This document shows positions 42,039 to 56,731 of a stretch of DNA of 64,000 nt, in pieces. Source of the DNA: Desulfobacterales bacterium (lineage in GTDB: Bacteria > Desulfobacterota > Desulfobacteria > Desulfobacterales > UBA5852); the NCBI GenBank assembly GCA_963674755.2, contig CAXXVS010000002.1, positions 96,001-160,000 on the forward strand, given 5' to 3'. The notes below the pieces were generated by a model. That model did no database searches and was not told where the DNA came from. It worked only from the letters and a program-made list of their open reading frames with translations. Each line of letters opens with the position of its first letter. Positions within the stretch are counted from its first letter, which is position 1. The position numbers and the translations under genes were made by a program.

Positions 42039-42453
42039 GCCGGCTGGGATGGCGTCTTTCGGCCCCCGGCGGCGTTCTCGCCCCTTTGCCGTCCTCGACG
42101 CAGCCGGGCTGCGCCTGCGGGGTCAAAAGGGGCTGCGGCCTTGCCGGAGACCGAAATCCACCACCCCAGCCGGCTCACGGGTGGTGGTAATGGCGGCGAC
42201 ATCTTTCGGTCCCCGGGGGCCTTTTCGCCCCTTTGCCGTCCTCGAGGCAGCCGGGCTGCGCCTGCGGGGTCAAAAGGGGCTGCGGCCTTGCCGGAGACCG
42301 AAATCCACCACCCCAGCCGGCTCACGGGTAGTGGTAATGGCGATGGCATCTTTCGGCCCCCGGGGGCCTTTTCGCCCCTTTGCTGTCCTCGAGGCAGCCG
42401 GGCTGCGCCTGCGGGGTCAAAGGGGGCTGCGGCCTTGTTGGAGAACAGAATCT
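42035..42453 (+). repeat. three tandem family 1 units (147-bp period), copies D1-D3
   Basis: D1 42035-42178 has a perfect 14-bp TIR GTGAGCCGGCTGGG; CCGAAATCCA recurs at 42151 and 42298; the third unit is truncated at copy E. Confidence 0.9.
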
Positions 42454-48137: not shown

Positions 48138-48659
48138 TCAGCTGCCCAGGTGGTCGATGAGCCTTCCGCTGGTTTGGCGCAGGTACTGGCTCATCTGCTT
48201 GGCGATCTTGAGGACCAGGGTGATGCCGATGCCCGGCAGGGCCTCATTGAGGCTTTGGAACTGCTCGGCCGTCATGACGAACAGGAGAGCGTCCGAACCG
48301 GTGACGGCCGACGCCGAACGCGGTTCCCCGTCGATGATTGACATCTCGCCGATGGTTTTACCCGGTCCCAGGGACGTGATTTTTTTGGGCGTGCGGTGGG
48401 AATCGAATTTGATCACATCCACCCGGCCCTTGACGATCAGGACCATATAGGCGTTTTTTTCGCCCTCGCAGAACAGGACGGTATCCTGGGAAACCCCGTA
48501 GACGCTCATGTAGCGGACGAGTTTTTTGATCCGCTCGAAACTGAATTCCATGGACCAGCGGGTGGCATCGAGCAGTTCGCTTTTTGCGATAATCGAAAGA
48601 TCTTGCCGCTCCAGGGCGAGCAACCCCGGTGCATTCTTCAACTCTTGGGCCGAGAGCAT
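48138..48659 (-). CDS. stand-alone cyclic-nucleotide-binding domain protein
   Basis: LFCEGE, G.V.V, GEMSIIDGEPRSAS phosphate-binding cassette; no C-terminal HTH. Confidence 0.88.
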   Translation of the reverse strand: MLSAQELKNAPGLLALERQDLSIIAKSELLDATRWSMEFSFERIKKLVRYMSVYGVSQDTVLFCEGEKNAYMVLIVKGRVDVIKFDSHRTPKKITSLGPGKTIGEMSIIDGEPRSASAVTGSDALLFVMTAEQFQSLNEALPGIGITLVLKIAKQMSQYLRQTSGRLIDHLGS

Positions 48660-48870
48660 GCTGGACCTCGCTTTTCTTGGACCGGGCCTGGGGGCGATTC
48701 TCCTCAGGACGCGCCGGTCGATCAAACAGGCCGCCTTTTGCCGCTATCGGCCATTTGCTGAAAAACCTTGAGCGCTTTGACCGGCGGTGCGGCGGGAGGG
48801 TGAAGCGGGCGCCGGGCGCGGTTTCCCCGTGGCGGCTTTCGGCGCCGGCGGCGGCATCCTGCGGATGGCC

Positions 48871-49464
48871 CTATGCTTTGGGGCGTGAAATGGATCGCAA
48901 GAAGCGATCCGTCAGGACTTGCTCCACTTCGGGCGTGATGTGCTCCGGCATTTCGGCCATGGCGTGGCGCACGGCGATGTCGATCATTTCGTCGCGCAGG
49001 TTGTGGCAGGCTTCCCGGTGGCGCGTTTCGACCAGCTGGCGGGCTTTGAGCAGGCGTCTTTCCGCTTCCTGCCGGGCCTCCGCGATAATCGTACGACGTT
49101 CTTCCTCGCCTTCGGCCACCATGCGCCGGTGCAGATCGGCGGCCCTTTGCTGGCGGTCCTCCAGCAGGGCGCGCAGGGATCGGATCTCTTCTTCGATACG
49201 GCCTTTCTGGCCTTCCAGTTTTTCCATCTTATCCTTGATCGCATCCCGCCGGGCGTTCAGGAAGTTTCCCAAGGGCTGGCGAAGCAGTTTGATGAGCACG
49301 GTCGTCAGGATAACAAAATTGACCCACATCATGACGGTGTCATAGGTTGGACGCCAGCCGCCGGCGGCCAATGCGGCCGGGGCCTGCAGCAGGTCCAACG
49401 CGGCCGCCGCCGTGGCCAGCCCCGCGGTCATGACGACCTTTTGGTTGACGGTCCGCACGGTCAA
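48871..49464 (-). CDS. atpF: ATP synthase Fo subunit b
   Basis: WVNFVIL..KLLRQPLGNFLNARRDAI TM plus coiled coil, with a hydrophobic N-terminal extension. Confidence 0.88.
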   Translation of the reverse strand: MTVRTVNQKVVMTAGLATAAAALDLLQAPAALAAGGWRPTYDTVMMWVNFVILTTVLIKLLRQPLGNFLNARRDAIKDKMEKLEGQKGRIEEEIRSLRALLEDRQQRAADLHRRMVAEGEEERRTIIAEARQEAERRLLKARQLVETRHREACHNLRDEMIDIAVRHAMAEMPEHITPEVEQVLTDRFLRSISRPKA

Positions 49465-49910
49465 GGCCTCCGATCGAGCAGGTGCTGGATGATGGCTGTG
49501 GTCAGCTGCGCCGCCTCGGCTTCGGTCTGCCGGCGCGCAACCATCAGCGAGGTCTTGAGTTGCTTTTCAGTCGCCAGATACTGATGCTTGATGTCGCTCA
49601 GGGCCTGGTCGACCAACCGGTCGGCTTCCTGCCGCCCCGTCTGCCGCAGTTCTTCGACGGTGCGGCGGGCCGTTGCCTGCAACCGTCGTTCTTCCGCCCG
49701 GGTCTCCCTGAGAAGGGTCCCCATCTCCTCCTTCAATCGAAGGATCGTCCGCCGGAGATCGGCGAAATGGTCTTCCCGCTCCGCCAGGTTGCGGCGCACC
49801 GGCCGGAACATGATCCGGTTGATCAGGAACAAAAAGACGAGAAAGATGATCATCTGAACCCAGAGGGTTTCATTGATCGTGATCAAGGCGTTGGTTTTGA
49901 TGATCTCCAT
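49461..49910 (-). CDS. ATP synthase Fo subunit b'
   Basis: INETLWVQMIIFLVFLFLINRIMFRPV...ERE, followed by coiled coil. Confidence 0.88.
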   Translation of the reverse strand: MEIIKTNALITINETLWVQMIIFLVFLFLINRIMFRPVRRNLAEREDHFADLRRTILRLKEEMGTLLRETRAEERRLQATARRTVEELRQTGRQEADRLVDQALSDIKHQYLATEKQLKTSLMVARRQTEAEAAQLTTAIIQHLLDRRP

Positions 49911-49961: not shown

Positions 49962-50210
49962 CTACACGACGAACAGGAGCAGCAGCGCGATCACCAGGGA
50001 GTAGATCCCCGTGGATTCGGCCACCGCCTGCCCGACCAGCATGGTGCGGGTCAACAGCCCGGCTTCCTTGGGATTGCGGCCGATGGCTTCGCAGGCCTTC
50101 GCCGCTGTCATGCCTTCCCCGACACCGGGACCGATGGCACCCAGCCCCATGGAAATGCCGGCCCCCAAAAGCGCCGCCGCTTTGACCAGATCTGCTCCTT
50201 CAATCGCCAT
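49962..50210 (-). CDS. atpE: ATP synthase Fo subunit c, single hairpin, Na+-type two-carboxylate motif
   Basis: GLGAIGPGVGEG, RNP loop, GQAVAESTGIY. Confidence 0.96.
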   Translation of the reverse strand: MAIEGADLVKAAALLGAGISMGLGAIGPGVGEGMTAAKACEAIGRNPKEAGLLTRTMLVGQAVAESTGIYSLVIALLLLFVV

Positions 50211-50260: not shown

Positions 50261-51244
50261 TCAGACGACAAAAATCAGGGCCAGGCTGACCACCATGGCA
50301 TAGATGGCCGTGGACTGGGATACGGCCTGCCCCACCAGCATGATGCGCATCAGATCGCCGGCATATTCGATGCGCCGCGCCACCCAGCGCACCGCCCCTT
50401 CGGCGGTGGCCCCGTTGCCAATGCCGGGACCGATGCCGCCCAGCCCCATGCACAGGCCGGCGCTGAACAGCGCGACCGAAGCACTCAGGGTCGAGGATGC
50501 CGGGAAGGTGCGGAACATCAGGATGAAACTCACTAGAAGCCCGAACACGGACGGCGTCTGGGCCACGGCCTGGCCCACCAGCATGGTCGTTGTGACGGCC
50601 GTGGCGGTTTCCGGCTGGCGGGCGATCCCTTCACAGCTGGCGCCGGCGGCCAGGCCGCCGCCATAGCCGGAGCCGATGGCGGCCAGCCCCGTGCTCAATC
50701 CGGCCCCGATCAGGGCGGCGCCGGTGGGAAAGGCCGCCACCCCGGCCGTGGGTTTGAACAGCAGGATCAGGGATACCACCATGGCAAAGATGGCCGGGGT
50801 CTGGCAGACCGCCGTGCCGATCAGCATATTGGTGGTGATGCGCCCGGAAATGGCGGGTTGGCGTGCGATGGCCAGGCAGGACCGTCCGGCCGGCACACCG
50901 GCGCCGACCCCGGAGCCGATGGCCCCGAACCCCATGCACAGCCCGGCGGCCAGGAGGGAGGCGGCTTTGACGATCCCCGGATCCGGAATGTCCATGAACA
51001 GCAGAAGGATGGCGATGACCAGAGAAAAGATCGATGCCGACTCGGAGATGGCCTGCCCCACCAGCATGTTCTTGACGATGTCGCCGGCATGCTCCCGGTC
51101 GCGGGCCATGGCCTCGGAGGCCTGGCTGGCGGTATAGCCTTCGCCGGTGGCCGCCCCGATGGCCCCGAAGCCCATGGCGACGGCCCCGCCGATGTAGGCT
51201 GCGGTCTGTGTTAAGGACAGGTTGTCGAAGGCCGGCAGGCTCAT
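50261..51244 (-). CDS. atpE: quadruplicated ATP synthase c subunit (327 aa, four helical hairpins)
   Basis: Four tandem c repeats, each with a Gly-rich inner helix and AR-x loop; outer helices GQAISESASIF, GTAVCQTPAIF, GQAVAQTPSVF, GQAVSQSTAIY. ATG 51244 overlaps the atpB stop (ATGA). Confidence 0.93.
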   Translation of the reverse strand: MSLPAFDNLSLTQTAAYIGGAVAMGFGAIGAATGEGYTASQASEAMARDREHAGDIVKNMLVGQAISESASIFSLVIAILLLFMDIPDPGIVKAASLLAAGLCMGFGAIGSGVGAGVPAGRSCLAIARQPAISGRITTNMLIGTAVCQTPAIFAMVVSLILLFKPTAGVAAFPTGAALIGAGLSTGLAAIGSGYGGGLAAGASCEGIARQPETATAVTTTMLVGQAVAQTPSVFGLLVSFILMFRTFPASSTLSASVALFSAGLCMGLGGIGPGIGNGATAEGAVRWVARRIEYAGDLMRIMLVGQAVSQSTAIYAMVVSLALIFVV

Positions 51245-51928: not shown

Positions 51929-52315
51929 TCAGGTGAGGGGTGACTTGGTGCCGCGTACGAGGCTGAAGACAGAATCCAGGATGATGCAGACGGGCACCAT
52001 GAATAACCCGGCCACCGTTGACGGCAGATCAACCGCGGGCCACTTCACCGCGACAACCACCGGGGCGGCCCAGAGCAGATAGCGTCCCAATTGGGCGGCC
52101 AGAGTCAGCAGGGCTCCCCGTCGGTGGTTGCCCGTCAGCTTCCGGGTCAGGCTGTGGCCCATCAGAACGAAATTGAGGCAACTGAACAGGCTGCCCAGCA
52201 AAATTCCCCGGGTCGCCGTCGGCCAGCCGGCCATGTAGACGCCCAGGCCGACCAGGATCGCGGCCGTGAGGGCGCCACCGCAATAACGCCGCTGAAAGGG
52301 TTTAATCGCTTCCAT
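51929..52315 (-). CDS. atpI: ATP synthase protein I (four TM)
   Basis: GILLGSLFSCLNF, GRYLL, four hydrophobic segments, directly upstream of atpB. Confidence 0.82.
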   Translation of the reverse strand: MEAIKPFQRRYCGGALTAAILVGLGVYMAGWPTATRGILLGSLFSCLNFVLMGHSLTRKLTGNHRRGALLTLAAQLGRYLLWAAPVVVAVKWPAVDLPSTVAGLFMVPVCIILDSVFSLVRGTKSPLT

Positions 52316-52568
52316 GGTCGGTCCCTGAATCCGAATCTGATGCGTCTGCAAAGGTTTCCATGATTTGCCGATAGGACACCACGCCCCCGCCGATGATGCC
52401 GAACAGGGTCAGCAGAACCGTCAGGATGCCGCGGCTGCCGAACCAGCGATCCAGATAGCGTCCGGCGAAAAAGCAGGCGACGATGCAGCCGGCCATGGTG
52501 AGTCCGACTTGCAGGACGATGGCGAGGTTTTCGGCCCAGGGCCGTTGTTGCTTGTAGTCCAGAACCAT
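52302..52568 (-). CDS. AtpZ/AtpQ (ATPase gene1) family protein
   Basis: VGLTMAGCI..AGRYLDRWFG..LFGIIGG two-TM pattern; first gene of the Fo operon. Confidence 0.82.
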   Translation of the reverse strand: MVLDYKQQRPWAENLAIVLQVGLTMAGCIVACFFAGRYLDRWFGSRGILTVLLTLFGIIGGGVVSYRQIMETFADASDSDSGTDHGSD

Positions 52569-52884
52569 GGCGATCGGCAGCATCAGTTAAAAGATTTGAT
52601 GGATCGCGCGTGAGGTTCAGTTTGTACGTCAGGTCCGCGGGGTCCGCAGTGAACGGGAGAAGGGGGGGAATAGGCAATGTTCATTTTTTAGATAGCTTTT
52701 CGTCATTTGTCAAATGGTCACCATTATAGTATAGAAATTTCCAGGCACACCGCAGCCTGCGACACCGCTTTGCGAAACGTGCATGCCCATTAATTCCTCT
52801 TCCCGACAGATCCCTTCCTGTTCATGGCTCCGCTGCCGATATGCACACCCCCAAACATCACAACCACTACCACAGGAGGTTGCC

Positions 52885-53505
52885 ATGGCCGTTCTCACCA
52901 TTTCGCGCATGTTTGGGACCGGGGCCGAGGCTTTGGGAGAAACCATCGCGAAACGCCTGGGCTACACTTTTTATCACAACGAACTGATTCAGCTGGTAGC
53001 CAGGAAGGCCAAAGTATCTACGGATTGGGTCAAGTCCATGGAAAAGGAGGCGGGCGGTAAATTCCAGAAGCTCATGACGTCTCTGGTTCCCAAAAGCCTG
53101 GTGGACAGGGTCCTCGATTCGGAGCGCGGCTATCTGGATGAAGAGATCTACACGGACATGCTGCAGCACATCATCACCAAGATCGCAGAGACCGGCGATG
53201 CCGTCATCCTCGGCCGCGGCGGACAGTATATCCTGAAGGACCGCGCGGATACCTACCATATTCTTCTCGTGGCGGATCTCGACCACCGGGTGAAGTATGT
53301 ACAGGCGCAGTACGACCTGATCCCCAAGCAGGCCATGCTGCTGGTGGCTATGGAAGACAAGCGGCGCGTGCAGCTCTACCGGAAATTCGGCAGGGTCGAT
53401 TATGACCAGACGGATCACTACCACGTGGTGTTCAATATGGCGCGCATGGAAATGGAAAGGGCCTGCGATATGCTCTGCACCCTGCTGGGAAGCTGCCGAT
53501 TCTGA
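52885..53505 (+). CDS. cytidylate-kinase-like family protein
   Basis: LTISRMFGTGAE, VILGRGG, D..R..Y motifs; CAGGAGG RBS. Confidence 0.88.
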   Translation: MAVLTISRMFGTGAEALGETIAKRLGYTFYHNELIQLVARKAKVSTDWVKSMEKEAGGKFQKLMTSLVPKSLVDRVLDSERGYLDEEIYTDMLQHIITKIAETGDAVILGRGGQYILKDRADTYHILLVADLDHRVKYVQAQYDLIPKQAMLLVAMEDKRRVQLYRKFGRVDYDQTDHYHVVFNMARMEMERACDMLCTLLGSCRF

Positions 53506-55616: not shown

Positions 55617-56731
55617 TTAACCCGGCAATAATAGTTACCAATTATGCTGCGTAAGCAATCTTAGGATGTTTAAAGTATTTTGCAACGCGCCTTGGCAATT
55701 TTTGTAGCATGCGAAGGTGGCTTAGCGCCTTGCTCTTTAATTGGGATTTTGACCTGGCTGGCGCACCGGAATGAACCCCGGCCTTCAAATCACAGTTCAA
55801 ATATTCATCTGGATTCAATTCGGGCGAATACGAGGGCAAAAAGAACAGTTCGATTTTGTCTTTATGCTGATCGATCCAGTCTTTGACAATATGACTATGA
55901 TGAACTCGCAGATTGTCCAAAATCAAAAATACCTTTTTGTCGGCATCTTTTATCAATCGTTTGCAAAATTTGATAAAGGTCTGCGAGTTCATTGTCTGAT
56001 TGTAGATCATGAAACGGACTTTACCCTGATTGGTAATCGAAGAGATCAGGTTGACCCTTTCCTTTTTTGCATTGAGCCGTATGGCAGGCGTTTTTCCTCT
56101 TGGCGCATAGCTTCTGCCATGCTGACTGTCGCTGCAAAGCCCGGTCTCATCCCCCCAATTGATCTCAGCGTCTTCTTTCTTGGCCCTGACTGCAATGGCG
56201 GGATACTCTTCGTCAAGCCATTTTTGAACCAATTTTGGGTTCTGTTCATAGGCTCTGCGCAAAGGCTTTTGGGGGGTAAAGCCCCAGCGGTTGAGGTACT
56301 CACCTACGGTGCGAATCGGCATATTGATGGAAAAAAGCTGCGTGATCAACTGCTGGACAGCCCGACGGGTCCAAAGGGCAAATGGGAACTTGAGTTGATC
56401 AGGGGTTTTATCGGTAATTACCTTTTTCAGCTGCTTTTCCTGCTCTGGATCAAGCGTTCGGCAACTACCGGTTTTGCGCCCCCGTTTCTTTGCCTTAATC
56501 GCATTTTGACCGCCTTTTTCGTAGGCTTTAAATATCTTGCACGCATTAGTGTAGTGAATGCCAACAACCTCACCGATCTCTTTGTAAGTTTTGCCAGCTT
56601 TGCGAAGCCTTACAACTTGTCGGCGCAGTTGCTCTTGAACCTCTGGTTTAAGCTTTCTGGTGTCTGTTGTTTCCATGCGAAGTACTATACCATACTTCGC
56701 AGTATTTTGGTATGAATAATCGCCGGGTTAA
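55617..56731 (-). mobile_element. IS630-family insertion sequence, apparently intact
   Basis: Terminal IRs TTAACCCGGC(AATAAT)/(ATAATC)GCCGGGTTAA, TA on both flanks (55615-16, 56732-33), one uninterrupted transposase ORF, lower GC. Confidence 0.93.
55642..56676 (-). CDS. IS630 transposase
   Basis: HTH region, WGFTPQKP, WGDET, ILDNL, LPSYSPELNPDE (DDE triad). Confidence 0.96.
   Translation of the reverse strand: METTDTRKLKPEVQEQLRRQVVRLRKAGKTYKEIGEVVGIHYTNACKIFKAYEKGGQNAIKAKKRGRKTGSCRTLDPEQEKQLKKVITDKTPDQLKFPFALWTRRAVQQLITQLFSINMPIRTVGEYLNRWGFTPQKPLRRAYEQNPKLVQKWLDEEYPAIAVRAKKEDAEINWGDETGLCSDSQHGRSYAPRGKTPAIRLNAKKERVNLISSITNQGKVRFMIYNQTMNSQTFIKFCKRLIKDADKKVFLILDNLRVHHSHIVKDWIDQHKDKIELFFLPSYSPELNPDEYLNCDLKAGVHSGAPARSKSQLKSKALSHLRMLQKLPRRVAKYFKHPKIAYAA

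What the first reader, a model, noticed from the sequence alone, without database searches (positions are those of the whole stretch)
50261..51244. Split half-sites at the two ends of the quadruple c subunit suggest it is built to slot into a Na+ ring
Established: in Ilyobacter-type Na+ c-rings the site is shared, with residues 32 and E65 from one hairpin and S66 and Y70 from its neighbour. Seen: hairpin 1 keeps E32/E65 but loses T67/Y70 (ESASIF); hairpin 4 loses E65 but keeps S-T-x-x-Y (QSTAIY) and the GPG inner-helix motif; the internal hairpins 2-3 lose both (QTP..F). Inference: each terminal hairpin keeps the half-site facing a normal c neighbour, which argues for selection on ring incorporation rather than decay.
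Basis: partly seen in the sequence, partly recalled or inferred. Interest (0 to 1): 0.8.

Follow-up and report, generated by a model that had tools for sequence, protein, structure and literature searches.

The report
Four-hairpin spacer for spare sodium rotor
This gene fuses four ATP-synthase rotor units and keeps sodium-binding residues only as two complementary half-sites on its outer ends, so it likely slots into a ring of ordinary rotor units as an ion-blind spacer, in a second membrane motor that has no catalytic-head genes of its own and would have to borrow the cell's single head.

Summary
Observation confirmed. The 327-aa ORF has four c hairpins: hairpin 1 keeps E32/E65 (no T67/Y70), hairpin 4 keeps S-T-x-x-Y and GPG (E65→Q), hairpins 2-3 read Q-T-P-x-x-F. 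In 194 distinct homologues (4-6 hairpins) the first hairpin has E65 in 193 and Y70 in 0; the last has S66/T67/Y70 in 194. All four hairpins are under purifying selection (dN/dS 0.08-0.13). A model with two c monomers puts each half-site against the matching half of a monomer (score 0.70, controls 0.00; may echo solved rings). The split itself is known: two-hairpin Acetobacterium woodii c1 (PDB 4BEM) has it. It also allows fused-to-fused packing, so it does not fix ring composition. New relative to the papers I could search: three to five consecutive empty sites, and a Z-I-a-c4-c-b'-b operon without F1 genes (0 of 80 loci). The genome has two a subunits and one F1, and 59 of 65 carrier genomes have exactly one more a than gamma. 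Ring incorporation, Na+ coupling and F1 sharing are inferred, not shown. This scan already found the family, including the shared-F1 idea, on other DNA.

The parts
50261..51244 (-). atpE1: four-hairpin fused F-type c subunit (327 aa, 8 helices)
   Evidence: best PDB match 4bem_J by sequence (E 3.3e-24) and by fold (E 5.6e-7)
50996..51223 (-). Hairpin 1 (aa 8-83): carboxylate half-site E35/E68 (=E32/E65); A70 and F73 in place of T67 and Y70
50756..50974 (-). Hairpin 2 (aa 91-163): no site (A32, Q-T-P-A-I-F); RQP loop kept
50513..50734 (-). Hairpin 3 (aa 171-244): no site (G32, Q-T-P-S-V-F); RQP loop kept
50270..50488 (-). Hairpin 4 (aa 253-325): hydroxyl half-site S311/T312/Y315, GPG motif (P273), N277 and Q310 in place of E32/E65
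49962..50210 (-). atpE2: single-hairpin c with the complete two-carboxylate Na+ motif (E32, E65, S66, T67, Y70)
   Evidence: motif as in F. nucleatum c11 (PMC3692424)
51241..51930 (-). atpB: subunit a of this module, with the conserved Arg in ..FRLFGN.. (start codon approximate; the ORF call extends to 52032)
51929..52315 (-). atpI-family gene (ATP-synt_I)
52302..52583 (-). atpZ/Q-family gene (ATPase_gene1)
49461..49910 (-). b' subunit (149 aa)
48871..49464 (-). b subunit (197 aa); last ATP synthase gene of the operon, no F1 genes follow

Best explanation
The protein is a four-hairpin F-type c subunit whose two ends carry complementary sodium half-sites, and it likely sits as an ion-blind spacer among ordinary c monomers in the rotor of a second, likely Na+-coupled Fo that would share the genome's only F1. 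Shown: the residue pattern, its conservation, purifying selection, the operon Z-I-a-c4-c-b'-b without F1 genes, and one F1 against two Fo sets in the genome. Predicted: hairpin-1 E32/E65 completes a site with S66/T67/Y70 of the preceding monomer, hairpin-4 S/T/Y completes a site with the next monomer's E32/E65, and the three inner interfaces are empty. Inferred: one c4 per ring removes three sites. For an assumed 11-hairpin ring this gives 8 sites, about 2.7 Na+ per ATP, and one 131-degree step on a single ion (ring size is unknown, 10-14 hairpins gives 2.3-3.7). The module would be a low-ratio Na+ gear used beside the H+ Fo. I lean to ATP synthesis at a lower Na+ cost, as shown for the A. woodii hybrid rotor (about 55:45 over ATP-driven Na+ export), because the long empty arc is easier to cross under hydrolysis.
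For: Terminal polarity in 194 homologues with 4 (108), 5 (60) or 6 (26) hairpins, with the extra units always internal. Y70 in hairpin n is followed by E65 in hairpin n+1 in 10 of 10 cases; in the reverse direction only 2 junctions have both, against 395 discordant. dN/dS over 15 disjoint pairs is 0.130, 0.118, 0.083 and 0.099 for hairpins 1-4 and 0.048 for the monomer; internal loops keep R (426/500) and P (488/500); hairpin spacing is 79-83 aa. Complex model: score 0.70, best of 3 controls 0.00; the mark was reached by 116 of 157 solved and 2 of 215 mismatched pairs (roughly applicable only); runs agree in at least 96% of contacts; partner pLDDT at least 80; half-sites face the right way and P273 of the GPG motif touches monomer residue 29. 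The pass may be memory of 4BEM or 1YCE. Residue 32 is E/E in 67 and Q/Q in 5 of 76 loci; the 5 form one clade, so this is one concerted event. Eight proteins end in a complete monomer-like hairpin placed after a Y-bearing hairpin. A. woodii c1 has the same split, sits 1:9 in a ring with 10 Na+ sites and makes ATP from about 90 mV. Genome: one alpha, beta, gamma, delta and epsilon; two a; four b/b'; no V-type a. F1 genes in 0 of 80 loci; a minus gamma is +1 in 59 of 65 carriers and 0 in 78 of 86 non-carriers (related genomes are not independent).
Against: No biochemical or expression evidence. Eight internal junctions have E65 without a preceding Y70. In 106 complete distant representatives (of 150) such junctions are the majority (88 against 10), mostly from a 42-member far clade with E-T-P in hairpin 3 and D/E in hairpin 4, so the pairing rule holds only from Y to E. 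Hairpin-1 residue 32 is V or I in 13 of 194, which weakens that half-site. A 103-144 degree step (up to 216 for six hairpins) on one ion has no precedent that I know of in F-type rings and is a real kinetic problem for synthesis. The b C-terminus is only loosely conserved (26 of 72 match a simple motif), so delta binding is not shown. Sixteen of 65 carriers do not have exactly one gamma.
Confidence: 0.65

Rival explanations
1. Fused-rich ring: c4 packs head to tail with other c4 copies (three c4 make 12 hairpins with 3 sites) or alternates with a few monomers, giving a V-type-like pump rotor with 1-2 Na+ per ATP.
For: The two half-sites are mutually complementary. L062 has the covalent pattern E-f, q-Y, E-f, q-Y, that is two c1-like units in tandem.
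Against: A monomer gene with the full motif follows in 76 of 80 loci and is the most constrained part (dN/dS 0.048). One ion per ATP could not drive synthesis at physiological potentials. Five- and six-hairpin forms fit a homo-ring of ordinary size less easily.
Confidence: 0.13
2. Assembly template: c4 nucleates or sets the curvature of the Na+ ring through its sticky ends, together with AtpI and AtpZ, and is then displaced, so the mature ring is all monomer.
For: This avoids the long ion-free step. The number of internal units varies freely (2-4), and the gene sits beside assembly-factor genes.
Against: Internal hairpins keep the cytoplasmic R-x-P loop that meets F1 (loop role from established knowledge; counts) and an almost invariant Q65 on the face that passes subunit a (498/500). 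The two-hairpin analogue is part of the mature ring in 4BEM.
Confidence: 0.12
3. Two-stator enzyme or F1-independent device: the module's a-b-b' joins the F1 as a second stator, so that one a is always over a binding site, or the headless Fo works without F1.
For: The module always brings its own b and b' but no delta. A natural two-stator F1Fo exists in Chloroflexus aurantiacus (PMC12002316 abstract). Two stators would remove the empty-arc problem.
Against: That enzyme uses a delta dimer, and short delta subunits are tied to it (bioRxiv 10.64898/2026.10.01.756066); this genome's delta is 183 aa. An uncoupled Fo would leak ions.
Confidence: 0.09
4. Decaying duplication or assembly artefact.
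For: Three of four carboxylates are missing.
Against: dN/dS 0.08-0.13 in every hairpin; present in 65 of 151 sampled genomes of the class; intact in an independent contig.
Confidence: 0.01

Closest known systems
Acetobacterium woodii subunit c1 (AtpE1; PDB 4BEM chain J) and Clostridium aceticum c1, in the F/V-hybrid Na+ ring c1(c2/3)9
   Same: Best sequence and fold match in the PDB. Same polarity: first hairpin Q32, E-T-S-x-x-F; last hairpin Q-T-T-x-x-Y ('Q....ET' then 'Q....QT' in PMC7911925). Gene lies between atpB and a monomer atpE.
   Different: Two hairpins and one empty interface there; four here (4-6 in close relatives, 2-5 in distant ones) with three or more consecutive empty interfaces. 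E32 rather than Q32. The acetogen operon is complete (10-11 genes); this one has no F1 genes, has b and b', and is the second Fo in its genome.
Fusobacterium nucleatum c11 two-carboxylate Na+ ring (PDB 3ZK1) and Ilyobacter tartaricus c11 (1YCE)
   Same: The monomer and the two half-sites use E32, E65 plus S66, T67, Y70; S66 and V63 come from the adjacent subunit (PMC3692424).
   Different: Homomeric rings in which every interface binds Na+.
N-ATPase (alternate F1Fo, atpDCQRBEFAG)
   Same: Second, mostly Na+-type ATPase with E32-containing c subunits.
   Different: N-ATPases carry their own F1 and a long b fused to part of delta; this module has neither, and the monomer c, a and b score far below the N-ATPase cut-offs.
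V/A-type multi-hairpin proteolipids (E. hirae NtpK; archaeal 3- and 13-hairpin c subunits)
   Same: Fused hairpins with fewer sites than hairpins.
   Different: In the standard double hairpin the complete site lies inside the protein (Glu in the second hairpin, S/T/Q pair and Tyr in the first). Here the opposite halves are kept, so sites form only between chains. The genome has no V-type a subunit.

Membership tests
F-type c subunit (PF00137) | Hairpin scoring above the Pfam cut-off | tested here: met
   182.9 bits against 24, four stretches
A. woodii-type c1 of a hybrid Na+ ring | Fused c, Glu in the first hairpin, Gln plus S/T-T-x-x-Y in the last | tested here: met
A. woodii-type c1 of a hybrid Na+ ring | Encoded beside a single-hairpin c with the full Na+ motif | tested here: met
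   (76 of 80 loci)
A. woodii-type c1 of a hybrid Na+ ring | Four transmembrane helices (two hairpins) | tested here: not met
   eight helices, four hairpins
A. woodii-type c1 of a hybrid Na+ ring | Complete F1Fo operon | tested here: not met
   no F1 gene in the operon or in 80 of 80 related loci
A. woodii-type c1 of a hybrid Na+ ring | Physically present in the ring, one copy | not testable with these tools
   only a model with two monomers
Na+-coupled F-type rotor | E/Q32 plus E[STQ][STQ]xxY in the monomer | tested here: met
   76 of 76 monomers; rule from bioRxiv 10.64898/2026.10.01.756066
Na+-coupled F-type rotor | Measured Na+ dependence or transport | not testable with these tools
   none
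N-ATPase | Own beta, epsilon, alpha and gamma genes in the operon | tested here: not met
N-ATPase | TIGR03322, TIGR03306 and TIGR03321 cut-offs; long b with delta-like extension | tested here: not met
   monomer 66.3/130.85, a 118.6/302.1, b 34/224.7; c4 passes TIGR03322 (151.1) only as a sum of four stretches; b is 197 aa
V/A-type ATPase subunit K | V-type K cut-offs and a V-type a subunit in the genome | tested here: not met
   below all K cut-offs; PF01496 0 matches

The most novel reading that the evidence does not exclude
Many sulfate reducers of this class run one F1 head on two interchangeable motors: an ordinary H+ Fo and a Na+ Fo whose gear ratio is set by a cassette of 2-4 blank hairpins held between two sticky half-sites. 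The rotor would coast 100-200 degrees without moving an ion, possibly with a second a-b-b' stator to carry it across.
Probability: 0.35. Interest if true: 0.85.

Novelty: new variant of a known kind. Interest (0 to 1): 0.62.

Why it matters
The ion-per-ATP ratio sets the minimum energy quantum of a cell, and how large an ion-free step an Fo motor can cross is an open mechanistic question. The known hybrid F-type rotor skips one site. This natural series would skip three to five in a row, in 65 of 151 sampled genomes of a major sediment lineage. If the shared F1 is real, one ATP synthase head would switch between H+ and Na+ by changing its membrane motor, which affects energy budgets calculated for sulfate reducers. 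The half-site logic gives directly testable predictions for ring composition.

Tried and rejected
Longer fusions: a search of proteins of 574-2000 aa found none at E <= 1e-20 (weak evidence). The representative search did return distant 7-, 8-, 13- and 15-domain proteins with E..Y in most units, not analysed further. Expression: the one RNA run holding the stretch (X1, share 0.21) gave eight listed short contigs of depth 2-4.6, two inside the c4 gene but others on the divergent gene and the gap between; no silent control was laid, so it shows nothing about transcription. Promoter and terminator scan: 3 against 1.2 expected, and 5 against 4.7; uninformative. A b-subunit C-terminal motif test was inconclusive. 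The subunit-a tree has weak deep support, so I give no count of origins for the variants with internal sites; they fall in more than one place. N-ATPase and V-type membership were rejected. Fisher tests on junction tables are not used as evidence because the sequences are related. Literature: nine searches found no description of a 4-6-hairpin F-type c or of a headless Na+ Fo in this lineage. Matthies 2014 and Brandt and Müller 2015, the papers most likely to mention such genes, are not held. PMC5109826 and PMC11887813 say nothing on c subunits in the passages found.

Full report
Observation. The ORF at 50261-51244 (-) encodes 327 aa with four ATP-synt_C stretches. Hairpin 1 still has S66 and the inner hairpins have T66, so the inner faces are remodelled rather than stripped.

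What the site looks like in solved rings. In the F. nucleatum c11 structure, E32 and E65 come from one subunit and S66 and the V63 carbonyl from the adjacent one; S66 and Y70 hydrogen-bond to E65 and T67 holds the water (PMC3692424, passages). A recent preprint states that in standard double hairpins the Glu is needed in the second hairpin and the S/T/Q pair with Tyr in the first (10.64898/2026.10.01.756066, passages). So hairpin n supplies the hydroxyls to the Glu of hairpin n+1. Applied here, hairpin-1 Glu needs a preceding chain and hairpin-4 S/T/Y needs a following chain. The same preprint notes that the motif sometimes lies in the second hairpin and 'in several multi-hairpin structures', without naming them in the passages I saw.

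Conservation. I took the best 80 of 252 genome loci and the best 120 of 2158 proteins; both are biased to close or long relatives. With the query, 201 multi-hairpin entries reduced to 194 distinct ones: 108 with four hairpins, 60 with five, 26 with six. First hairpin: E65 193, F70 194, E or Q at 32 179. The one exception at 65 is P0003, an irregular six-domain entry. Last hairpin: S66, T67 and Y70 194 each, Q65 178, N32 179, Pro28 190. Internal hairpins (500): Q65 498, T66 497, P67 468, Y70 10. Added units are always internal. All 10 internal Y70 hairpins are followed by an E65 hairpin. Against a strict rule, 8 junctions have E65 with no preceding Y70. In the representative search I kept 106 of 150 hits as apparently complete 2-6-hairpin proteins: first hairpin E65 91 and Y70 5; last hairpin Y70 94 but also E65 37. 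Y is followed by E in 10 of 11 junctions, but E follows a non-Y hairpin 88 times, largely in a 42-member far clade. Terminal polarity is therefore general; the count of internal carboxylates is not.

Selection. Over 15 disjoint unsaturated pairs from 76 loci, dN/dS is 0.130, 0.118, 0.083 and 0.099 for hairpins 1-4 and 0.048 for the monomer. Internal loops keep R in 426 and P in 488 of 500. Spacing between hairpins is 79-83 residues. Decay is excluded.

Geometry. AlphaFold gives eight helices at pLDDT 95.5; the best fold match is 4bem_J. The complex of c4 with two monomers scored 0.70 against 0.00 for the best of three controls; 116 of 157 solved and 2 of 215 mismatched pairs reach the mark, counts that hold only roughly for this job; runs agree in at least 96% of contacts and partner pLDDT is at least 80. 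The interface lists E35 and E68 but not 69, 70 or 73, and 311, 312 and 315 but not Q310. The monomer at hairpin 4 shows residues 32 and 65 but not 66, 67 or 70; the other shows 63-68 and 70. Because similar rings are solved, the pass shows likeness and handedness, not that this protein binds in the cell.

Context. The operon is atpZ-I-B-E1-E2-F'-F and then stops. The genome (97% complete, 3 contigs) has one alpha, beta, gamma, delta and epsilon with their own b' and b on contig C3, a separate Z-I-a-c cluster whose c reads IESLCIY (H+-type by motif), two a subunits, four b/b', no V-type a, and four Rnf/Nqr-family membrane genes. None of the 80 related loci holds an F1 gene, although flanks are short in some; 71 have the b gene. 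In 151 genomes of the class (at least 90% complete), 65 carry the fused gene. The count of a minus gamma is +1 in 59, +2 in 4 and 0 in 2 of the 65 carriers, and 0 in 78, +1 in 4 and -1 in 4 of the 86 others. Matches are not exact copy numbers and kin are not independent, but the module is consistently an extra Fo without a head. That it borrows the resident F1 is inference.

Mechanism. One c4 among monomers removes three sites. Ring size is unknown. For 10-14 hairpins the ratio would be 2.3-3.7 Na+ per ATP and the longest step 144-103 degrees; for six-hairpin forms, 1.7-3.0 and 216-154 degrees (my arithmetic). The A. woodii hybrid rotor, with one such gap, makes ATP from about 90 mV (PMC9171764, passages) and has 10 sites (PMC7793690, passages); a reduced ratio is read as an adaptation to low energy (PMC7911925, passages). 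A step of an F1 power stroke or more on one ion is harder to cross in synthesis than in hydrolysis, so Na+ export remains nearly as likely, and a second stator as in Chloroflexus (PMC12002316, abstract and outline) is not excluded. The half-sites would also allow c4-to-c4 packing; L062 shows such a junction in one chain.

Known and new. The protein fails c1 membership on hairpin number and operon, and fails N-ATPase and V-type tests. One paper notes two to four atpE copies in Desulfatiglandales genomes and could not resolve their ion specificity (PMC13343851, passages). Nine searches found no description of these fusions or of the headless module. Matthies 2014 and Brandt and Müller 2015 were seen only in reference lists, and no supplements were read; either may bear on novelty. 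My recollection is that the 2015 survey reported only two-hairpin forms, but that is not checked.

Earlier notes of this scan describe the same family many times on other genomes, two of them with the shared-F1 idea, and one is marked as having partly fallen on a later check without saying which part. My reading was recorded before I saw them; they are not counted as support. Verdict: a real, strongly selected, widespread variant of the hybrid Na+ rotor; orientation supported in silico; function inferred.

Noticed in passing
G000 C2:248482-250282 and C3:2782018-2788127 (outside the window): The main ATP synthase is split into a Z-I-a-c cluster with an H+-type c and a b'-b-delta-alpha-gamma-beta-epsilon cluster; this is the only F1 in the genome.
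   Followed up: yes
window 52783-53505 (+); 45 of 80 related loci: A Cytidylate_kin2-family gene lies next to the module, divergently here; relatives often have one upstream, downstream of b, or both. Possibly a regulator.
   Followed up: partly
window 48138-48725 (-): A cyclic-nucleotide-binding protein follows b, but only in 2 of 80 related loci, so it is probably not part of the module.
   Followed up: partly
window 50300-50488 (hairpin 4, N277): The last hairpin has Asn at position 32 in 179 of 194 homologues, facing an empty site; unexplained, perhaps part of a hydrogen-bond network that replaces Na+.
   Followed up: no
L052, L054, L055, L063, L076, L078, L080, P0112, P0115; L062: Variants that end in a complete monomer-like hairpin after a Y-bearing one, and one (L062) built as two c1-like units; they would give two sites per fused chain.
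   Followed up: partly
P0174-P0272 (42 of the representative hits): A distant clade of about 320-aa four-hairpin proteins with E in hairpins 1 and 3, D or E in hairpin 4 and Tyr only at the end; host and operon unknown.
   Followed up: partly
P0152, P0188, P0220, P0226: Distant c-type proteins with 15, 13, 7 and 8 hairpin domains, most keeping E..Y; possibly single-chain rings.
   Followed up: no
window 55642-56676 (-): A 344-aa ORF that looks like an IS630-family transposase (by eye, recalled motif; no call).
   Followed up: no
window about 42040-42410: The intergenic region after the kduI-like gene appears to hold three similar repeated units, seen as repeated peptide blocks in spurious ORFs.
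   Followed up: no
G100 and G064: Two carrier genomes show three a-subunit matches for one gamma; G100 has two copies of the fused gene.
   Followed up: no
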